This document shows, in pieces, positions 3,895 to 46,204 of a stretch of 50,500 nucleotides of DNA. The notes under the pieces were generated by a model, which was given only the letters and a program-made list of their open reading frames with translations, did not search any database and was not told the origin of the DNA. The position numbers were made by a program, and so were the translations under genes. The stretch lies in sequence record SRR20825006_1008; one strand, 5' to 3'. Within the stretch, counting starts at the first letter, position 1, and each line of letters starts with the position of its first letter.

Positions 3895-3950
3895 GCAATG
3901 CCCCCGAAAACTTCAGGAGCAGCTCTGCAAATTTCACGCCATACGCGAAA

Positions 3951-39311: not shown

Positions 39312-42300
39312 CTAAAATCGACCCCAATACGTCTTGCTGGCAGTAACGCGGATGTGCCGTGCATGGGTCAGGAAGGCGTCTTCCACCTCTTTTCTTTGTT
39401 GAACCGTGGCAATCCGCTTGTGGAGCTTCTTCTGGTAGGCAGGCATTTCGCCGTCCTTTGTGGCATAGACAAAGCCGTAAAGGGCGGCGTCTCTGGAGCT
39501 GTCGTCGTCAAGTCGGTTGACCATCAGTTCTGCGGCGGCGTCTTCATCTCCGAGACACAGAAGCGTCAGCATGTGAGCAGAGGGGTTGGTATCGGCCAAT
39601 GGCATGAGCTGCTCATTGAGCGCGCTTGTTGCTTCTGACGTACGGCCAAGTTCATGCATCGCACAGACTTTGGCGCTGTAGATGTACATTTCGCCATAGT
39701 CGCTGGCAAAATGATCGTCGAGTTGCTCCAGTGCCTTGCTGGCGTCTAGGGCGTCCTCGAATCGGCCAGCGCTCAGGAACATATGCGCCCGATTGATTGC
39801 CATGCTGATCAATTGCGGATTTTCTTCGATCCCAAGGTCAAGAACACGGTCCATCAGCGCGATGGCCTCATCCGTGCGACCTGCATCTTCCAGAGCGTAG
39901 GCATACTCATTCACGAACCAATAGGCCTCGTCACCCACGGCTTCTATCCGCGCCCAATTTCCGATGAGATCCTCACCGAACACGATGGCGCGGTCATAAA
40001 GTCCAGCCTGCCTGAGGGCGTTTACATATCGACTTTGCACTTTGAAGTCAGAAGTATCTTCGAGAGCTTCCTTCTCGGATTGTTCGACGAACTGGTTCAG
40101 GGCAACTGTGAGGTCTGCACCGTATTTCGCCTCGATGTCGCTCCAGACAGGTTCGGTATCTCGCTTCATCAGAATGTGCGCCAGCATTTCAGGATCTGTT
40201 ATCTCGGTAACGACAGTTCTGGCTGTATCCACTTCCCCAGCCCGGACCAGGGGTTCGATCATGGCTGCATAGAGCCAGCGTTCGACATCTCCTTCCTTGC
40301 GGTTGGCGTATTGCGCCTTGCCCGCAGCGATGACGAGGCGGTCCTGCTCATCTCTTGCGCCAGACTCATCGAGTTCGCGCAGGAGTCCTCTCAACCATTT
40401 CATATTGACGCCTCCGATAGCGGAAGGGTGCTCGGTGAACAGCCGCTCCATGATTGCAGCAGCTTCGACGGGGGAATCCTCGCGAACCATGCCTGCATAG
40501 GAGAAATAGCTGCTGGTCCAGTCCGGCGTCGTAAGTTCGAACGCTTCGCGATAAGCCGCCAAGGCCGCGGAGGAACGTTTCCGCTCATCGAAGATCGCGC
40601 CTCTCAGCAATTGAATGTATCCCCGCACCGGCGTTGGATCGGGATTGGTTTCGAGCAGGGCAGCAAGCATTTCGAGCGCTTCAACGTGCTTCTTTTTTCC
40701 CAGAAGTAAGGAAACCTCCATAAGGGCTGTCTCTGTTTCCGCAGGCAGGGCTTCGGACAGGCCGAGCCGACGGGCAAATGTGGGGGAAGCCCGGTTAATG
40801 TAGACCTCAAGATAACCGATATCATCCAAGTCGTTTTTCAACTCGATGATGTCCATCGCATGTCCAGCCGCGACGGACCGTTCCGTCACTTTCAGTTCGT
40901 AATTCACAATCAGCCATTCGCTTCGCGCTTGATAGGCCTGCTTCACGCTCACCCCGTGAGCCTCGAGTGTGACGCCTTCGGGAACAGCGAGTGTCTTGCC
41001 GGGTACGTGAACTTTCACCGTATGAGCCGTGTAGGTCCCATAGGGTAGCCACATCTCGGCGGTCCGGTTGGCTTCAATGGATGCTGGAATTTCGCCGAGG
41101 ACCGCCGTTGCCCGCAGAGGCATGGATTTGCTCAGCTCGGCGGCCTCATAGGCCTCTTCCGAAATTGCGTACGCCTCGGTGATGGTGATTTCGTTGTGGT
41201 CCAAATCATCGGAGACTTCGATGGGTCGTGTGGCTGTGATTCCGGGATAGTATTCTGAATAATAGTCGAGATACTGACGACCCGTGTGGTCGATGCCATT
41301 ATTGGCGAGGCGAGTTCTTACCCCATCCGCATTACGTCCCCGGTACATGGTTCTTACGTCGAGCTGGGCATGGTCATAGGTGTCTTCTCCTCCCAGGAAG
41401 GTGATGACCTCCTCAATTTCTTCCTCAGGTTGTTTGGGAAACGAGCGCTCGATCAGTTCCAGATCCGTGGTTTCGGCCCGAATGGGCAGGGCATAACCAT
41501 AGTCCGGGATCGATAGCCGGGAGAGTGTTCCGCCCTGATGACTCAGGGTCGGGTCCAGCCAGATGCTTTTTCCATCCAGTTTCACGTGAACAATGGCGTG
41601 GTTAAAGGCCCCGACGATTACCGGACCGCCGGGAAGGGCGAAGCCGTCATATGTGCTGGCTAGCGCCGGTCGGGCATCAATGCCCAATTTCTGGAGGATG
41701 ACGGAGAGCAGCAGACTCTTGTCCTTGCAGTCCCCGTAGCTGCGCGTAAGCGTCACTTCCGGGGTTCGTGGTTTATGGGACCCCAAGCCGGCCTGCAGGC
41801 CAAGATAGCGAATTTCGCTCTGCACAATCCGCAAAGCTTGGACAATGCGGTCTTCCTTGTCCGGATATTGCCGGGCAAGCGCGTCGATGCGCGTTTCAAA
41901 ATCTGCAGGCAGGTCATAGTCCACGTCATACAGTCCCATGGCCCAGTCAACGACGTCGGCCCATTCGTCCATGGAGCTGAACGAGATATAGCCAAATAGA
42001 ACGTGACCATACGCGATGTTGGTTTCCAGCAGAACGGGCTCAGCATCTTGAATGCGGAACGAATAAACAAGGTCTGCCCCCACCCGGCTCGTTTCGACAG
42101 GTGTATCGGTTCCAACCCGCGTAATCGTGAGAGGGGCCTCGGCAGGGGCGAGCAACCGAAAGGATTGCGTCGCCACAGGGACCGACCATTCAACCGCCTC
42201 TGACGTAAAAAACTCTCCAGGCCACAGCGGTGTCGATACTTCTCCATGATAAGCGTAATCGATGATGTCACCGACGCGAACATCTTCGAGTTGGACGATG

Positions 42301-42734
42301 GCTGTTAGGGTGCCATCGAGAATGCCTTCATTCAGTTCGCTTTCCTGCTGGATCAGTTCAATCTCGGTGTCTGCCAGCCGGTCAATCCGTTTACCATCTC
42401 GAATGATATCAAGGCGGCTGAATGCAAGGGTCGTGTCTTCCGGATCGAAAGAGGGGGTAATGCGAGCGGCGGCTTCCAGACCGGTCCGCTCGGTGATCTC
42501 ATAGACCATCCGATCATAGTAATCGTATCCGTCGCCATCCCATTTCTTCTGTGTATCGGTCAGGAGAAACCCAATTCCATCGCGGATGGAGTTGGCGCGG
42601 TCATCTGGCATGTTCGAGATAGGCTGTTCGACCACCCAGTCTGGCGCGGGTGCCTTGATCTCCGCTTCTTCGGCGGCTGCCGACATCCAAAAGCCCGTTA
42701 TGATCGCCAGAAGCGACAGAACCAATACACGCAT
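39312..42734 (-). CDS. Secreted DUF3857 / transglutaminase-like cysteine protease domain protein with TPR-like C-terminus
   Basis: Signal peptide, APDWV, DVRVGDIIDYAY, GDCKDKS (Cys), FNHAI (His), WLDPT (Asp), helical repeats; start MRVLV. Confidence 0.82.
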   Translation of the reverse strand: MRVLVLSLLAIITGFWMSAAAEEAEIKAPAPDWVVEQPISNMPDDRANSIRDGIGFLLTDTQKKWDGDGYDYYDRMVYEITERTGLEAAARITPSFDPEDTTLAFSRLDIIRDGKRIDRLADTEIELIQQESELNEGILDGTLTAIVQLEDVRVGDIIDYAYHGEVSTPLWPGEFFTSEAVEWSVPVATQSFRLLAPAEAPLTITRVGTDTPVETSRVGADLVYSFRIQDAEPVLLETNIAYGHVLFGYISFSSMDEWADVVDWAMGLYDVDYDLPADFETRIDALARQYPDKEDRIVQALRIVQSEIRYLGLQAGLGSHKPRTPEVTLTRSYGDCKDKSLLLSVILQKLGIDARPALASTYDGFALPGGPVIVGAFNHAIVHVKLDGKSIWLDPTLSHQGGTLSRLSIPDYGYALPIRAETTDLELIERSFPKQPEEEIEEVITFLGGEDTYDHAQLDVRTMYRGRNADGVRTRLANNGIDHTGRQYLDYYSEYYPGITATRPIEVSDDLDHNEITITEAYAISEEAYEAAELSKSMPLRATAVLGEIPASIEANRTAEMWLPYGTYTAHTVKVHVPGKTLAVPEGVTLEAHGVSVKQAYQARSEWLIVNYELKVTERSVAAGHAMDIIELKNDLDDIGYLEVYINRASPTFARRLGLSEALPAETETALMEVSLLLGKKKHVEALEMLAALLETNPDPTPVRGYIQLLRGAIFDERKRSSAALAAYREAFELTTPDWTSSYFSYAGMVREDSPVEAAAIMERLFTEHPSAIGGVNMKWLRGLLRELDESGARDEQDRLVIAAGKAQYANRKEGDVERWLYAAMIEPLVRAGEVDTARTVVTEITDPEMLAHILMKRDTEPVWSDIEAKYGADLTVALNQFVEQSEKEALEDTSDFKVQSRYVNALRQAGLYDRAIVFGEDLIGNWARIEAVGDEAYWFVNEYAYALEDAGRTDEAIALMDRVLDLGIEENPQLISMAINRAHMFLSAGRFEDALDASKALEQLDDHFASDYGEMYIYSAKVCAMHELGRTSEATSALNEQLMPLADTNPSAHMLTLLCLGDEDAAAELMVNRLDDDSSRDAALYGFVYATKDGEMPAYQKKLHKRIATVQQRKEVEDAFLTHARHIRVTASKTYWGRF

Positions 42735-42903
42735 TGTAACCCCGCCAGTAAACAAACAGATTTCTTGTCAGGCTCAGTAAGAGCGGTGTCTGATATTCGC
42801 GTCAACACTGAAATGGAAGTTCGTATTGGTTGCGGATCAGATACTCGAGATGGTCGCATAATTCGGGTGGTGCCTGTTTGGAGTGACTGGTAAAGCCCGA
42901 TAG

Positions 42904-43812
42904 ATGAACACTGAAACTCGCCTCGGATTCTTTGCTGGCCTGGGGGCCTTTTTTATCTGGGGGAGCCTGCCGCTCTACATCCGGCTGATGCAGCACATCG
43001 GTGCGGCGGACCTGCTGGCACATCGCGTGGTCTGGTCCATACCGACTGCGCTGATCTTCATTGCGATTGCTGCGAACTGGCGGGACGTTCGGACAGCCCT
43101 GAAATGGGACAAGCTGAAATGGCTGCTTATCTCAGGCGCCCTGATCGGGTCCAATTGGGGATGTTACATCTGGGCGGTAAATGCTGGCCGGACGATGGAA
43201 GCGTCGCTCGGCTATTACATCAATCCGCTTGTGAACGTGATCTTCGGCATGATCTTCTTTTCCGAGCGCCTTCGGCCGGCGCAATGGGGCGCAGTAAGCA
43301 TCGCCGCTATCGGCGTTGCCATCATGACAGTGGCTTTCGGACAGGTGCCGTGGGTCGCCCTGTTTCTCTGCGTAACCTTTGCCTGTTACTCGCTGATCCG
43401 GAAGCAGGTCGCCATTGATAGTCGAGCGGGATTTCTGATGGAGGTTCTGCTGTTGGCGCCCGTCGCCCTGGCCTGGTTGGCCTGGCTCTCGCGCCAACCG
43501 GATGCGCAAGTATTCGGCAATGGGGGATGGGATGTCGCACTATTGATGGCGGCCGGCCCGATCACGTCTGTGCCCCTCATCCTGTTTGCCTTGTCAGCAC
43601 GTCGTCTGAAGCTCTCGACCATCGGCATGATGCAATATATCGGGCCGACCTTGCAGTTCCTGATCGCGGTTCTCGTGTTCCGCGAACCGTTCGGCTGGAC
43701 CCATGCGGCGGCTTTCGGTTTCATCTGGACGGCGTTGGCGATCTTCACCGCCGATAGTGTCATGGGCGACGCCAAGGCCCGGCGGCTCGCCCGCGCAGCG
43801 CGAGTCAGCTGA
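42904..43812 (+). CDS. rarD: EamA-family transporter RarD
   Basis: WG.LPLY, HRVVWS, EASLGYYINPL, QYIGPTLQF. Confidence 0.92.
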   Translation: MNTETRLGFFAGLGAFFIWGSLPLYIRLMQHIGAADLLAHRVVWSIPTALIFIAIAANWRDVRTALKWDKLKWLLISGALIGSNWGCYIWAVNAGRTMEASLGYYINPLVNVIFGMIFFSERLRPAQWGAVSIAAIGVAIMTVAFGQVPWVALFLCVTFACYSLIRKQVAIDSRAGFLMEVLLLAPVALAWLAWLSRQPDAQVFGNGGWDVALLMAAGPITSVPLILFALSARRLKLSTIGMMQYIGPTLQFLIAVLVFREPFGWTHAAAFGFIWTALAIFTADSVMGDAKARRLARAARVS

Positions 43813-43844
43813 AAAAATGCTCCGGGCGGTGAGCACCCGGAGCA
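43812..43844 (-). terminator. Intrinsic terminator (ends the candidate sRNA and the lysE transcript)
   Basis: TGCTCCGGGTG-ctcac-CGCCCGGAGCA-TTTTTT on the minus strand. Confidence 0.85.
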
Positions 43845-43876
43845 GGAAGATGTTTTGCATGATTGGAGTTGCCTCC
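43812..43876 (-). ncRNA. Candidate sigma54-dependent small RNA (~65 nt)
   Basis: Begins at the predicted +1 of a perfect sigma54 promoter; GGAG-GCAA-CUCC hairpin, 20-nt unpaired core, 11-bp terminator stem plus U6. Confidence 0.6.
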
Positions 43877-43888
43877 GATTTCACCTCC

Positions 43889-43903
43889 GCAAGGACTGTG
43901 CCA
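43889..43903 (-). promoter_or_regulatory. sigma54 (RpoN) -24/-12 promoter
   Basis: Minus strand TGGCACAGTCCTTGC matches TGGCAC-N5-TTGC exactly. Confidence 0.7.
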
Positions 43904-43904
43904 G

Positions 43905-44528
43905 TCAGGAGACCGAACGTCCGGTCGAGACGGCGATCCACACGGCGATTCCAAGCAGCATGATGGCAAAGGTGCCGCGCAGGAGGGGAGCGGTCCGATA
44001 AGCTTCCAGTTTTTGGCCAAAACGGGACCCGGCAAGTACAATACTCGTATGGATGGTCGTCGCGACCACCAGGTGGATGACGCCCAGCGCAACAATCTGC
44101 AACCAGATTGGTCCTGCGGTATCGCTGGCGAACTGCCCGACGACGACGAGATAGAACACAAGCGCTTTGGGATTCAACAAATTCGCAGCCAGACCCCGCC
44201 AGAAGCCCGCCGCCTTGTTTCGATTGAGTGGTGAGACGGATCCGGTATCCCGCCAAGCCTCAACGGCGAGATAGACCATGAATGCGACGCCTGCCCATCG
44301 CAGCGTGTCGTAGAGCATGGGCATTCCGGCGAGCAGAGCCGACAGGCCTGTGGCCGCAGCCACCAACTGGGCCGCCAGCCCCAGTGTGATGCCTGCGACA
44401 GCGCGCATTCCCGCTGCGCGGCCCTGCTGCGCCGACAGCGCGGCGAGCCATCCCATATTGGGACCAGGCGTCAATTCCACTGCCCCCATGGCAATCAGGA
44501 ATGCGGCCCAGTCAATATGGTTCAGCAT
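43905..44528 (-). CDS. LysE family translocator
   Basis: ELTPGPNM, NLLNPKALVFY. Confidence 0.88.
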   Translation of the reverse strand: MLNHIDWAAFLIAMGAVELTPGPNMGWLAALSAQQGRAAGMRAVAGITLGLAAQLVAAATGLSALLAGMPMLYDTLRWAGVAFMVYLAVEAWRDTGSVSPLNRNKAAGFWRGLAANLLNPKALVFYLVVVGQFASDTAGPIWLQIVALGVIHLVVATTIHTSIVLAGSRFGQKLEAYRTAPLLRGTFAIMLLGIAVWIAVSTGRSVS

Positions 44529-44531
44529 GGA

Positions 44532-45650
44532 TCAGAGGCAGTCATAGACCGCTTCAACCAGTCGTACCGCACGCGGGTCACCCACGAGAATATTGGATTG
44601 CTTGTTCATGACATAGGCGCACGTCAAACCATTGCGCTGATCAGCTATCGCCATGGAGCCCCCCCAGCCACAATGGCCGAGCGTGGTGGGTTCAGGTCCG
44701 AACATGCCGTGAGTGTTGTGCATGATGCCAGCGCCGAAGCTGGTGATCATGGGCAGAACCAGATCCGGTCCATGTGTTCGCGCCGTGCTGAGTGCCTCGA
44801 AAGTGGCGTTGCTCATGACACCCTCGCCATTGGTCGTGTAGGTCTCATAGAGTTGCGCGACCGAGAGCGCTGTTCCGTGGCCGTTTGCCGACGGAATTTC
44901 GATCTCGCGCCAAATGGCTCCACCGCGATTTGGGGCGGCCCATTTGCTGACAAATGCTGCGCGTCGCGGGGGGGTAATCTCTCCGAGTTCTGCCAATTCT
45001 CGCGGTCGCTGGATGTCGGCACAGCGATCATGCTCGCTGGCGGGTGTGCCGATCATGAAGTCGACGTTCGGAAACAGCAAATTTAGCGTCGTACCGAGCG
45101 TTTCGCCACTGATGCGCCGTGCAATCTCTCCGACGAGATAGCCCCAGGTCAGGGGATGATAGCCATGCGCGCTGCCCGGTGACCACATCGGAGCCAATTC
45201 CGCCAGTGCGGCGGCGCAGGCGGGCGGATCGAGCCAGAGCTCAGGGTCGATCTCTTCCGGAAAGCCGGGCAGGCCGGCTTGGTGACTCGCAACTTCGGCA
45301 ATTGTGACCGCGCCTTTTCCATTGGCTGCAAATTCGGGCCATACATCGGCCACGGGCGTCTCAAAGCCGCCCGGCAGGCGCTCCACCAGATGGGCCAGGA
45401 CGATGGCTGCGATACCTTTGGTGGTCGAATAGACCGGGACGAGGGTGGTGTCTGACCATGGGTGTTCCTTCTTCCGGTCAGCCCAGCCGCCGACCAGGTT
45501 CACGACGACTTTGCCGTCCTTGATGACGGCGAATCCGGCGCCGAGCTCCTCGCCATTCTCGAAGTTTTTTTCGAAGACGCGGCGAACAGATTCAAATCCG
45601 CTGTCGGCATGTCCGGCCATTGGCCAGCTGTCAGATGTTGTATCAGTCAT
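44532..45650 (-). CDS. Serine hydrolase, beta-lactamase class C/esterase family
   Basis: S-T-T-K (SxxK), HQAGL, GYHPLTWG, GHCGWGGS; start MTDTT. Confidence 0.88.
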   Translation of the reverse strand: MTDTTSDSWPMAGHADSGFESVRRVFEKNFENGEELGAGFAVIKDGKVVVNLVGGWADRKKEHPWSDTTLVPVYSTTKGIAAIVLAHLVERLPGGFETPVADVWPEFAANGKGAVTIAEVASHQAGLPGFPEEIDPELWLDPPACAAALAELAPMWSPGSAHGYHPLTWGYLVGEIARRISGETLGTTLNLLFPNVDFMIGTPASEHDRCADIQRPRELAELGEITPPRRAAFVSKWAAPNRGGAIWREIEIPSANGHGTALSVAQLYETYTTNGEGVMSNATFEALSTARTHGPDLVLPMITSFGAGIMHNTHGMFGPEPTTLGHCGWGGSMAIADQRNGLTCAYVMNKQSNILVGDPRAVRLVEAVYDCL

Positions 45651-45688
45651 CGGTGTTGGCTCGCATAAACCGAACTGGCCGACAAGCG

Positions 45689-46204
45689 TTACGGCTGAAC
45701 CAAGGCCCGCACATCGGCGGCAACACGGCTGGTGAGGTCGCTGTCTACGGAGGCTATAAAATCCTCGAGCGCCTGCTGCCATTCGAAGATCTGCCTGAGG
45801 CCGAACTCATCCTCTCCCCTAAAGGAGACGTGGAATCTCACGCATATCCCACTCGGAGAAGGACCCTTTTTCGCGTAGGCGGTTCCGGGGTTGAAGCCCT
45901 CATTCATCTGATTGGCAAGTTCCAGCGTTTCCAGTCGCGAATAACCAGGCAGGTCCCGGCAGGCCGTAAAGCGGGCCGTCTGGCAGGTGCCGTCGATCTG
46001 GGAGCACTCCCGAAGCACGGCCTCGAACCCCTGTTTGTCCATCGCTGCGGACATTGTGGGGTGCGTGTCGATATACCCGATTTTGACGGACTGGAATTCG
46101 CGTATGAGGAATTCGTTGCGAAACTCGATCAGCGTAATGGGTTTCGCAAAGGCAGGCTCGCAAAACAGGAAGATTTGAGCCAGTAAGAGCAGGCGAAACA
46201 TCAT
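45689..46204 (-). CDS. Secreted YbjN-like domain protein
   Basis: Signal peptide (EPAFA); LELANQMN....G.AY and W...L..F pattern; paired Cys. Confidence 0.55.
   Translation of the reverse strand: MMFRLLLLAQIFLFCEPAFAKPITLIEFRNEFLIREFQSVKIGYIDTHPTMSAAMDKQGFEAVLRECSQIDGTCQTARFTACRDLPGYSRLETLELANQMNEGFNPGTAYAKKGPSPSGICVRFHVSFRGEDEFGLRQIFEWQQALEDFIASVDSDLTSRVAADVRALVQP

What the first reader, a model, noticed from the sequence alone, without database searches (positions are those of the whole stretch)
43812..43903. Complete sigma54-driven small RNA gene hidden in the 92-bp gap between convergent rarD and lysE
Seen: on the minus strand, TGGCACAGTCCTTGC (43903-43889) is an exact TGGCAC-N5-TTGC sigma54 promoter lying just after the lysE stop. 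Counting 12-13 nt from the -12 GC puts +1 at about 43876. That is exactly where a hairpin GGAG-GCAA-CUCC (GNRA tetraloop) begins. It is followed by an unpaired 20-nt core (AAUCAUGCAAAACAUCUUCC) and an 11-bp terminator stem plus U6 ending at 43812. No protein gene lies downstream on this strand, so the only plausible product is a ~65-nt RNA. Established: 5' hairpin + seed + intrinsic terminator is the architecture of Hfq-type base-pairing sRNAs, and sigma54 in Caulobacterales drives nitrogen (NtrC), flagellar (FlbD) and stalk (TacA) programmes. Inference: the CAUCUUCC part of the core could pair with GGAAGAUG-like RBS/start regions. I do not recognise it as a named family.
Basis: partly seen in the sequence, partly recalled or inferred. 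Interest (0 to 1): 0.8.

Follow-up and report, generated by a model that had tools for sequence, protein, structure and literature searches.

The report
Conserved sigma-54-driven small RNA gene
The 92-base gap between two transporter genes of this Hyphomonas genome holds a small non-coding RNA gene with its own sigma-54 promoter, kept in over a hundred related marine bacteria and not described before, though its transcript, activator and targets remain untested.

Summary
On the minus strand lie TGGCAC-N5-TTGC (43903-43889), a hairpin starting at the predicted +1 (43876-43865), a 20-nt open linker, and an 11-bp terminator with U6 ending at 43812.

One box in one window is not significant: 17 of 100 shuffles give one. 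Comparison with relatives settles it.
- In 73 loci found through the neighbouring rarD protein alone, 42 carry the strict box and 66 a relaxed box at this place. The background rates are 0.0006 and 0.046 per zone.
- A covariance model finds one strong copy in most genomes of four genera of the family. It is always convergent with rarD, whether the upstream gene is lysE or a beta-lactamase-like gene.
- No ORF is conserved. No Rfam family matches. Four literature searches found no description.

In the nearest genome only two of the four enhancer-binding proteins keep the GAFTGA loop: a TacA-like response regulator and PspF. NtrC and NtrX lack it.

Still open: no transcript evidence, no enhancer site found, no target found. 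Verdict: a real new sigma-54-dependent sRNA family.

The parts
43889..43903 (-). sigma-54 type -24/-12 promoter box, TGGCACAGTCCTTGC
   Evidence: Sequence read. It is the only match in the window. The same box with the same spacing is kept in relatives: strict form in 42 of 73 rarD-anchored loci and relaxed form in 66 of 73. In the alignment of 87 distinct sequences the T1-C4 and T12-C15 columns are at least 90% identical (that alignment is model-selected).
43812..43877 (-). predicted small RNA, about 66 nt, from the predicted +1 to the end of the U-tract
   Evidence: +1 is inferred from the canonical 12-nt distance after the -12 C. The covariance model R1 scores this stretch at 50.3 bits, E 3.4e-10. 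No transcript end has been mapped.
43865..43876 (-). 5' hairpin GGAG-GCAA-CUCC, starting at about +2
   Evidence: A hairpin of at least 4 bp starting between -4 and +4 is found in 82 of 87 distinct orthologues, against 65% of 2610 shuffles. Its sequence differs between clades.
43845..43864 (-). single-stranded linker AAUCAUGCAAAACAUCUUCC, the putative seed
   Evidence: Unpaired in the MFE and centroid folds. Among 87 orthologues a CCAUC-like motif occurs in 68, AUGC in 44 and a CU-rich motif before the terminator in 73.
43818..43844 (-). terminator stem-loop, 11 bp with a 5-nt loop
   Evidence: In the alignment of orthologues 91.8% of cells pair, all 8 modelled pairs show changes on both sides, and 0 of 500 shuffles reach the observed values (the alignment was fitted to the model).
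43812..43817 (-). U6 tract; its last base overlaps the rarD stop codon
42904..43812 (+). rarD-like EamA transporter gene, the convergent and constant neighbour
   Evidence: ORF. Pfam EamA, E 1.9e-16. A homologue is adjacent in 30 of 30 model-anchored loci.
43905..44528 (-). lysE-family translocator gene, the variable upstream neighbour on the same strand
   Evidence: ORF. Pfam LysE, E 1.1e-24. Present upstream of the RNA in only 8 of 30 model-anchored loci.
44532..45782 (-). beta-lactamase-family (serine hydrolase) gene, which is the direct upstream neighbour in most other genera
   Evidence: ORF. Pfam Beta-lactamase, E 1.1e-52. Detected in 27 of 30 model-anchored loci.

Best explanation
This is a free-standing gene for a non-coding RNA of about 66 nt.

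How it is made (inferred from the anatomy and from conservation; no transcript has been seen):
- RNA polymerase carrying sigma-54 binds the -24/-12 box at 43903-43889.
- It stays closed until an ATP-hydrolysing enhancer-binding protein opens it. In this lineage that is most likely the TacA-like response regulator, and otherwise PspF. These are the only two EBPs in the nearest genome that keep the GAFTGA loop.
- Transcription starts at about 43877 and ends at the intrinsic terminator (43844-43812).

How it works (weaker inference):
- The 5' hairpin starts at +1 and caps the RNA.
- The open linker carries a CCAUC/AUGC motif and a CU-rich stretch next to the terminator. It pairs in trans with purine-rich ribosome-binding regions of mRNAs, probably with help from Hfq, and lowers their translation.

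The RNA would thus be the post-transcriptional output of one sigma-54 signalling pathway.
For: 1. Anatomy is exact.

2. Promoter conservation measured without selecting on the promoter. In 73 loci found through the RarD protein, the strict TGGCAC-N5-TTGC box lies in the 210-nt zone after rarD in 42 and a relaxed box in 66. The rest of the same loci holds 2 strict and 162 relaxed matches in 746,982 nt, which is 0.0006 and 0.046 per zone.

3. Model R1 hits 67 of these 73 loci. In 151 genomes of the family, 112 have a match at E <= 0.01. By genus: g1 27/28, g12 14/15, g14 28/28, g21 18/19. Most genomes have a single strong full-length hit.

4. The element is independent of the upstream gene. All 30 model-anchored loci have rarD convergent, only 8 have lysE, and 27 have the beta-lactamase-like gene. 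L010/L027 keep the box directly after a different stop codon.

5. The box and its spacing stay constant while the N5 spacer, the 11 nt before +1 and the RNA body vary. Mean column identity is 44% (profile).

6. The 5' hairpin begins at -4 to +4 in 82 of 87 sequences, against 65% of shuffles, and the mean MFE z is -1.37. The terminator helix covaries.

7. No ORF is kept. ATG occurs in 53 of 87 sequences, and only 9 of those have an in-frame stop before the end of the transcript.

8. The machinery is present in the nearest genome, G001: rpoN, hfq, and four EBPs. GAFTGA is kept in the TacA-like protein and in PspF but not in NtrC or NtrX. PspF passes its NCBIfam equivalog cut-off, 474.8 against 443.55.

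9. The same GAFTGA split is reported for Caulobacter. That report assigns sigma-54-dependent control to TacA and says NtrC acts at sigma-70-dependent promoters (passages of bioRxiv 10.1101/2023.06.06.543975).
Against: - No transcript start, strand or abundance could be obtained. Only assembled contigs of RNA libraries were on hand.
- One contig from an RNA library (run X3, 359 nt) runs unbroken from inside lysE through the promoter and RNA region and stops at 43808, 4 nt past the U-tract. Read-through from lysE to the same terminator, or DNA carried in the library, is therefore possible.
- No shared enhancer (UAS) motif was found upstream. The enriched words are coding motifs of lysE and the beta-lactamase-like gene.
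- No stretch of lowered synonymous variation was found anywhere in rarD, including the 3' part of rarD that adjoins the RNA gene.
- No mRNA target stands out. Over 5436 candidate translation-start regions covering 82% of G001, the best duplex is -27.3 kcal/mol, while the best values for 8 shuffled seeds range from -24.4 to -28.8.
- The hairpin statistic is modest, 94% against 65%.
- Related genomes are not independent samples.
- Alignments A1 and A2 were selected by a regular expression or a model that includes the box.
Confidence: 0.72

Rival explanations
1. The RNA acts in cis on rarD. It is transcribed convergently into the 3' end of rarD, so it is fully complementary to any rarD transcript that reads past the shared hairpin. 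It controls rarD mRNA 3'-end formation or stability, or interferes with convergent transcription. This can coexist with a trans-acting role.
For: - Synteny with rarD is strict. rarD is adjacent and convergent in 30 of 30 model-anchored loci although the upstream gene varies.
- The weaker orthologues L150 and L159 also lie against an EamA-like gene.
- The U-tract abuts or overlaps the rarD stop codon.
- The scan lists no terminator on the plus strand after rarD, so rarD transcripts may run into the RNA gene.
- Contigs from RNA libraries extend from rarD to 43868 (run X1) and to 43827 (run X2). Their strand is unknown.
Against: - Cis complementarity needs no conserved primary sequence. Yet the linker keeps a CCAUC-like motif (68 of 87) and a CU-rich stretch (73 of 87), and pyrimidines make up 0.72 of the last 8 nt before the terminator.
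- Complementarity to the rarD translation-start region is not enriched: mean z is 0.07, and 3 of 39 loci have z < -1.5.
- The overlap with the rarD coding sequence is a single base.
Confidence: 0.15
2. There is no separate gene. The hairpin and U-tract are simply the terminator of lysE (or of the beta-lactamase-like gene), and the -24/-12 match is fortuitous.
For: - One box per 50.5-kb window arises in 17 of 100 shuffles.
- Strict boxes in G001 number 6 against 3 for the control.
- The X3 contig bridges lysE and the RNA region and ends just past the terminator.
Against: - A chance box would not persist. The strict box is found in 42 of 73 loci and the relaxed box in 66 of 73 independently anchored loci, against 0.0006 and 0.046 expected per zone.
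- It keeps its distance to a hairpin across four genera, while the adjacent bases and even the upstream gene change.
- H. oceanitis carries two tandem copies, each with its own box, hairpin and terminator.
Confidence: 0.03
3. The RNA works by binding a protein rather than by base-pairing. It would titrate Hfq or another RNA-binding protein through the GGA-containing 5' hairpin or the CU-rich linker, as CrcZ-type RNAs do.
For: - Many orthologues show GGAA or GGAG in or beside the hairpin loop.
- No base-pairing target was found.
Against: - The RNA is short, with only one such motif. Known sequestering RNAs carry several (recalled, not tested).
- The loop sequence is not conserved across clades.
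- The failed target search had low power and is not evidence of absence.
Confidence: 0.07
4. The promoter serves a protein-coding message: either a tiny peptide starting at the ATG in the linker, or a leader whose terminator is read through to express the next minus-strand gene (the 1147-aa DUF3857/transglutaminase protein at 42755-39312).
For: - The window has ATG at 43860-43858, 11 nt after GGAGG.
- A large minus-strand gene lies 1.1 kb downstream.
Against: - ATG is present in only 53 of 87 orthologues, and only 9 of those have an in-frame stop before the end of the transcript.
- The 1147-aa gene is next to rarD in 0 of 75 related loci.
- The terminator is strong and conserved.
Confidence: 0.03

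Closest known systems
Qrr1-4/5 of Vibrio (LuxO-P plus sigma-54 dependent, Hfq-dependent sRNAs)
   Same: A small terminated RNA whose transcription needs sigma-54 and a phosphorylated response-regulator EBP. The Qrr RNAs pair with ribosome-binding sites of targets (review passages, PMC13501541). Gene copies can multiply: H. oceanitis has two in tandem.
   Different: There is no sequence or structure homology, since no Rfam match was found. The Qrr RNAs are longer with more stem-loops (recalled). This RNA is mostly single-copy. The candidate EBP scores far below NCBIfam's LuxO cut-off, 378.6 against 800. The targets are unknown.
GlmY/GlmZ, NrsZ, CrcZ/CrcY and NfiS (sigma-54-dependent sRNAs of Gammaproteobacteria; recalled from memory, not from a call)
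   Same: Free-standing sRNA genes with -24/-12 promoters, each activated by one dedicated EBP (GlrR, NtrC, CbrB).
   Different: Different lineage, size and fold. Several act by protein sequestration or mimicry. In this lineage NtrC lacks the GAFTGA loop, so the nitrogen route is unlikely.
[quoted passage not shown]
   Same: An sRNA output of a sigma-54 programme (review passage, PMC13501541). It also sits at the 3' side of an upstream gene on the same strand.
   Different: According to the review passage, GlnZ is derived from the glnA 3' UTR. The RNA here has its own conserved -24/-12 box after the upstream stop codon, and it persists when the upstream gene changes.
Alphaproteobacterial trans-sRNA families with anti-Shine-Dalgarno motifs, such as AbcR/alpha-r15 (recalled)
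   Same: Short Hfq-type architecture with C/U-rich single-stranded motifs and an intrinsic terminator, in the same bacterial class.
   Different: No Rfam match to any of them. As far as I recall, those families are not sigma-54 dependent. The seed motif here is CCAUC..CUU rather than CUCCCA.

Membership tests
sigma-54 (-24/-12) dependent promoter | GG at -24/-25 and GC at -12/-13, with invariant spacing between the two elements | tested here: met
   TGGCAC-N5-TTGC at 43903-43889. The same spacing holds in all orthologues found. The strict box is in 42 of 73 and the relaxed box in 66 of 73 loci anchored on RarD alone. Variants seen are TGGCAT, TGGCGC, TGGCCT, CGGCAC and TTGT or GTGC at -12.
sigma-54 (-24/-12) dependent promoter | The organism encodes RpoN and at least one EBP able to contact it (GAFTGA loop) | tested here: met
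   Tested in the nearest genome G001, because the window's own genome is not held. rpoN scores 238.5 bits. The TacA-like EBP and PspF carry GAFTGA; NtrC and NtrX do not.
sigma-54 (-24/-12) dependent promoter | An enhancer (UAS) for the EBP within a few hundred bp | tested here: inconclusive
   No shared dyad or word was found upstream beyond coding motifs. No window of lowered synonymous diversity was found in rarD. These methods have low power for degenerate sites.
sigma-54 (-24/-12) dependent promoter | Transcription start about 12 nt after the -12 element, lost in an rpoN mutant | not testable with these tools
   Only assembled contigs of RNA libraries were available. They show no starts and no strand.
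Hfq-type trans-acting base-pairing sRNA | Rho-independent terminator with a U-tail, and an Hfq gene in the organism | tested here: met
   The terminator and U6 are, and are conserved with covariation. hfq is present in G001 at 104.2 bits.
Hfq-type trans-acting base-pairing sRNA | A conserved single-stranded seed | tested here: inconclusive
   The linker is unpaired. A CCAUC-like motif occurs in 68 of 87 sequences and a CU-rich stretch in 73 of 87. Column identity in the RNA body is mostly 40-60%.
Hfq-type trans-acting base-pairing sRNA | Complementarity to mRNA targets beyond chance | tested here: inconclusive
   The genome-scale scan did no better than shuffled seeds. The rarD start region is not enriched. 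EBP gene starts show nothing. No recurrent perfect 12-mer site was found in 41 genomes of genus g14. No comparative (CopraRNA-type) prediction could be run.
Any Rfam 15 family (including Qrr and Caulobacter or alpha-r sRNAs) | Covariance-model score at or above the gathering threshold | tested here: not met
   The best score for the window is 18.3 bits against 112 required, E 1.5. There were 0 matches at gathering score in 10 orthologous loci.

The most novel reading that the evidence does not exclude
This RNA is the so-far-unseen post-transcriptional arm of the TacA developmental phosphorelay in stalked, budding Hyphomonadaceae. TacA is the sigma-54 pathway that controls stalk formation in Caulobacter. 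A single family-wide sRNA would be switched on by TacA~P and would silence a set of mRNAs during stalk or bud morphogenesis. It would also be the first sigma-54-dependent sRNA family defined in Alphaproteobacteria. The PspF alternative, an envelope-stress sRNA of the phage-shock response, would be equally new.
Probability: 0.3. Interest if true: 0.75.

Novelty: new member of a known kind. Interest (0 to 1): 0.62.

Why it matters
Sigma-54-dependent sRNAs such as Qrr and GlmY are the decisive outputs of their signalling pathways in Gammaproteobacteria. My four literature searches and Rfam 15 turned up no such sRNA for Caulobacterales or Hyphomonadaceae.

In the nearest genome only two activators can talk to sigma-54: a TacA-like response regulator and PspF. 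The sRNA is one of very few good -24/-12 promoters in that genome: 6 strict boxes, of which 4 are intergenic.

This makes a clean experiment possible. One Northern blot in rpoN, tacA and pspF mutants would assign a new riboregulator either to a developmental pathway or to an envelope-stress pathway. The covariance model gives over a hundred orthologues for comparative target prediction.

Tried and rejected
1. RNA evidence. Only Logan contigs of metatranscriptomes were available. In run X1 no contig covers 43869-43920, the promoter region. One contig ends at 43868 and another begins at 43921 with adapter letters. An uncovered part proves nothing, so I do not use it.

2. Enhancer search. Enumerating dyads and k-mers in 37 upstream regions against 35 control regions gave only lysE and beta-lactamase-gene coding motifs. 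TCTG-N4-CAGA in 32% against 3% was not followed up. Synonymous-site entropy along rarD in 54 sequences showed no low window.

3. Phyletic test for the activator. PspF-like genes were found in 151 of 151 family genomes, including genera where the RNA was not found, so the test does not discriminate. The same test for the TacA-like gene was not run.

4. Targets.
- rarD start region: mean z 0.07.
- Starts of the four EBP genes: nothing.
- 5436 candidate start regions in 82% of G001: no better than shuffled seeds.
- Perfect 12-mer complement of the g14-clade seed in 41 genomes: 15 matches in 12 genomes. At least two of them (G185, G125) are the sRNA gene itself. The rest could not be inspected.

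5. RNAalifold on the MAFFT alignment found no RNA helices, because the hairpins are not aligned by sequence. Covariation in the 5' hairpin was therefore judged only by per-sequence folding.

6. A relaxed-box scan of G001 gave 163 hits. It was too noisy to define a regulon.

7. Three weak full-length model hits in other families of the order (G189, G224, G193; E 1.6e-5 to 5.7e-4) were not inspected, because no more genome letters could be drawn.

8. Earlier findings of this scan: none.

9. Supplementary tables were closed. Table S10 of PMC3616915 lists 112 S. meliloti TSS with RpoN motifs and may include sRNAs. Tables S2 and S3 of the Caulobacter NtrC preprint were also out of reach.
Full report
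WHAT IS IN THE WINDOW

The gap between convergent rarD (42904-43812, +) and lysE (44528-43905, -) is 92 bp. On the minus strand it reads, in order:
- TGGCACAGTCCTTGC at 43903-43889, starting one base after the lysE stop
- 12 bases
- GGAG-GCAA-CTCC at 43876-43865
- AATCATGCAAAACATCTTCC at 43864-43845
- an 11-bp stem with a 5-nt loop at 43844-43818
- T6 at 43817-43812, whose last base belongs to the rarD stop codon

RNAfold predicts exactly the two hairpins with an open linker. MFE is -27.7 kcal/mol, z = -5.21, and 0 of 200 shuffles fold as well. The terminator scan lists this site on the minus strand only. Pfam confirms the neighbours as EamA (rarD-like), LysE and, further upstream, Beta-lactamase family.

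IS IT MORE THAN CHANCE?

Taken alone, it is not. One box in 50.5 kb appears in 17 of 100 shuffles. In the nearest genome held, G001, the strict pattern occurs 6 times against 3 for the reversed control. The window's own genome is not held. The case rests on comparison with relatives.

COMPARATIVE EVIDENCE

- A DNA search of 41 relatives matched 18 genomes. In every locus that held the orthologous rarD 3' end with enough sequence beyond it (15 loci), the same box sat at the same place. It was followed about 12 nt later by a hairpin, an open stretch and a terminator.
- The RarD protein recovered 79 loci. Their records are titled Hyphomonas (H. atlantica, H. polymorpha, H. oceanitis, H. johnsonii, H. 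chukchiensis and others), Henriciella and related MAGs.
- I counted without selecting on the promoter. Of 73 usable Hyphomonadaceae-type loci, 42 have the strict box and 66 a relaxed box in the 210 nt after rarD. The remainder of the same loci, 746,982 nt on both strands, holds 2 strict and 162 relaxed matches, which is 0.0006 and 0.046 per zone.
- Six loci have no element there: L071, L073, L079, L087, L090 and L093. In these the neighbouring gene abuts rarD. Two loci are truncated.
- A covariance model, R1, was built from promoter plus RNA with only the terminator pairs specified. It hits 67 of the 73 loci.
- In 151 genomes of the family, 112 match at E <= 0.01, and 92 of the 127 good-quality genomes match. 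Single strong full-length matches occur in genus g1 27/28, g12 14/15, g14 28/28 and g21 18/19. Matches in g13 (3/10) and g15 (11/27) are weaker, and none was found in g18 (0/7).
- Two of the weak hits I inspected are true diverged orthologues lying against an EamA-like gene: L150 in g27 and L159 in g15.
- In a sample of the order, 13 of 15 genomes of the family match. Only 3 of 56 genomes from five other families match, weakly, and these were not inspected.
- Related genomes are not independent, so these counts describe distribution rather than significance. The telling point is the pattern within the alignment. Mean column identity is 44%, yet the TGGC and TTGC columns are at least 90% identical while the N5 spacer, the 11 nt before +1 and the RNA body drift. 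Alignments A1 and A2 were selected with the box, so their invariance is partly built in. One search is the unbiased count.

INDEPENDENCE FROM THE UPSTREAM GENE

In the 30 best model-anchored loci, rarD is adjacent and convergent in 30. lysE lies upstream in only 8, and the beta-lactamase-like gene is present in 27, directly upstream where lysE is missing. The box therefore follows different stop codons in different genomes. This excludes a mere lysE terminator with a chance motif. H. oceanitis SCH89 carries two tandem copies, each with its own box, hairpin and terminator.

THE RNA

- Among 87 distinct orthologous sequences, a hairpin of at least 4 bp begins between -4 and +4 of the predicted start in 82, against 65% of 2610 dinucleotide shuffles. 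Mean MFE z of the 5' part is -1.37.
- The hairpin sequence differs between clades: GGAG/CUCC, CAGAU/AUCUG, GGGUUC/GAACCC, GAGUU/AACUC and others. The GNRA loop of the window is therefore not a family feature.
- The terminator helix pairs in 91.8% of cells, with changes on both sides in all 8 modelled pairs, and 0 of 500 shuffles reach the observed values (the alignment was fitted to the model).
- The linker keeps a CCAUC-like motif in 68 of 87, AUGC in 44, and a CU-rich motif in the last 10 nt before the terminator in 73. Pyrimidines make up 0.72 of the last 8 nt.
- ATG occurs in 53 of 87, and only 9 of those have an in-frame stop before the end of the transcript, so no peptide is conserved.
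- The large minus-strand gene 1.1 kb downstream is next to rarD in 0 of 75 related loci, so the promoter is not a distant promoter for it.
- Rfam 15 has nothing. The best score for the window is 18.3 bits against 112 required, and there are 0 matches in 10 orthologous loci.

WHO ACTIVATES IT?

- G001 is 99% complete. It encodes RpoN, Hfq and four EBPs.
- One is a 485-aa response-regulator EBP with receiver, AAA+ and HTH_8 domains. It reaches no NCBIfam equivalog cut-off; for FlbD it scores 355 against 750. I call it TacA-like from recall.
- One is PspF, scoring 474.8 against a cut-off of 443.55. It has no receiver domain and lies divergent from a small ORF-pspA-pspB operon whose promoter is TGGCAC-N5-TTGA.
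- The other two are NtrC and NtrX.
- GAFTGA, the loop that contacts sigma-54, is present in the first two only.
- The same split is described for Caulobacter. Passages of bioRxiv 10.1101/2023.06.06.543975 say that NtrC and NtrX lack GAFTGA and that FlbD and TacA have it. They assign sigma-54-dependent control to TacA and say NtrC acts at sigma-70-dependent promoters.
- The activator is therefore most likely the TacA-like protein or PspF, and not NtrC.
- I could not choose between them. No shared enhancer was found, and PspF is found in all 151 family genomes searched.

TRANSCRIPT EVIDENCE

None is usable. Fourteen of the 18 listed runs that hold part of the stretch are on record as RNA, and all are kept as assembled contigs. 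Of the four I laid, one contig (run X3) runs from 44166 in lysE through the promoter and RNA and stops at 43808. This is compatible with lysE read-through ending at the same terminator, or with DNA in the library. Contigs from runs X1 and X2 extend from rarD to 43868 and 43827. Strand and ends cannot be read from contigs.

MECHANISM

- Shown: the anatomy, its conservation, the lack of an ORF, and the presence of the sigma-54 machinery.
- Inferred: EBP-gated transcription from about 43877 to 43812.
- Weaker inference: trans base-pairing through the CU-rich or CCAUC linker with purine-rich translation-start regions, helped by Hfq.
- Target searches found nothing above background, but they had low power.
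- A cis-antisense effect on the rarD 3' end is the main rival. It would explain the strict synteny, but it does not explain the conserved linker motifs.

COMPARISON AND NOVELTY

The RNA works like the Qrr RNAs (LuxO-P plus sigma-54; review passages) and other sigma-54-dependent sRNAs that I recall (GlmY, NrsZ, CrcZ). It is not a member of any curated family. Four full-text searches found no description of a sigma-54-dependent sRNA in Hyphomonas or Caulobacterales.

I rate it a new member of a known kind. It is well supported as a gene, with its regulator narrowed to two candidates and its function still open.

Noticed in passing
window 3927-3941 (minus strand): A second sigma-54-like box, TGGCGTGAAATTTGC, lies about 32 nt upstream of an ORF beginning MSVTRINWIDYAKGV, which looks like an acyltransferase-3-type membrane protein. 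The orthologous gene in G001 (contig C20) has the same box. Two further acyltransferase-like genes in G001 also sit behind -24/-12-like boxes (L103; C12 near 478734).
   Followed up: partly
L026:3394-3487 and L026:3681-3772 (minus strand; record titled Hyphomonas oceanitis SCH89): Two tandem copies of the sRNA gene lie about 200 nt apart. Each has its own -24/-12 box (TGGCAC.. and CGGCAC..), 5' hairpin and terminator. The copy next to rarD is the more diverged.
   Followed up: partly
L106:925-3447 (G001 contig C19): A phage-shock locus. pspF has no receiver domain and lies divergent from a 43-codon membrane-peptide ORF, pspA and pspB. The promoter TGGCACGGTCCTTGA is at L106:2148-2162, behind a very AT-rich upstream region with repeated AAATACC words.
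   Followed up: partly
L107 and L108 (G001 contig C4, 74-79 kb): NtrC and NtrX of this Hyphomonas both lack the GAFTGA loop, as reported for Caulobacter. hfq lies just downstream at C4:81795.
   Followed up: yes
L156 (G011 contig C2, about 107.9 kb, minus strand): TGGCACGGAGGGTGC is followed by a stretch of about 45 nt and a strong terminator, away from rarD. It could be a second short sigma-54-driven RNA or a chance hit (R1 E = 0.0024).
   Followed up: no
L097 and L098 (low-GC MAGs titled Rhizobiaceae), just after the rarD homologue: A different small element follows rarD here: a hairpin with a C-rich loop (CCCCCC...) followed by a terminator. L097 has a degenerate TGGTAT-N5-CTGC box. This may be an unrelated sRNA at the analogous place.
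   Followed up: no
window 39312-42755 (minus strand): A 1147-aa protein with DUF3857, a transglutaminase-like core and C-terminal TPR repeats. It is not syntenic with rarD in any of 75 related loci.
   Followed up: partly
L101, L102 (G001 contig C12): Two further strict TGGCAC-N5-TTGC boxes lie in intergenic DNA. One is 27 nt before a 274-aa ORF (MSPADTPSVRIDLDDYAYTC...). The other is 43 nt before a family-2-like glycosyltransferase ORF. Both are candidate members of the same small sigma-54 regulon.
   Followed up: no
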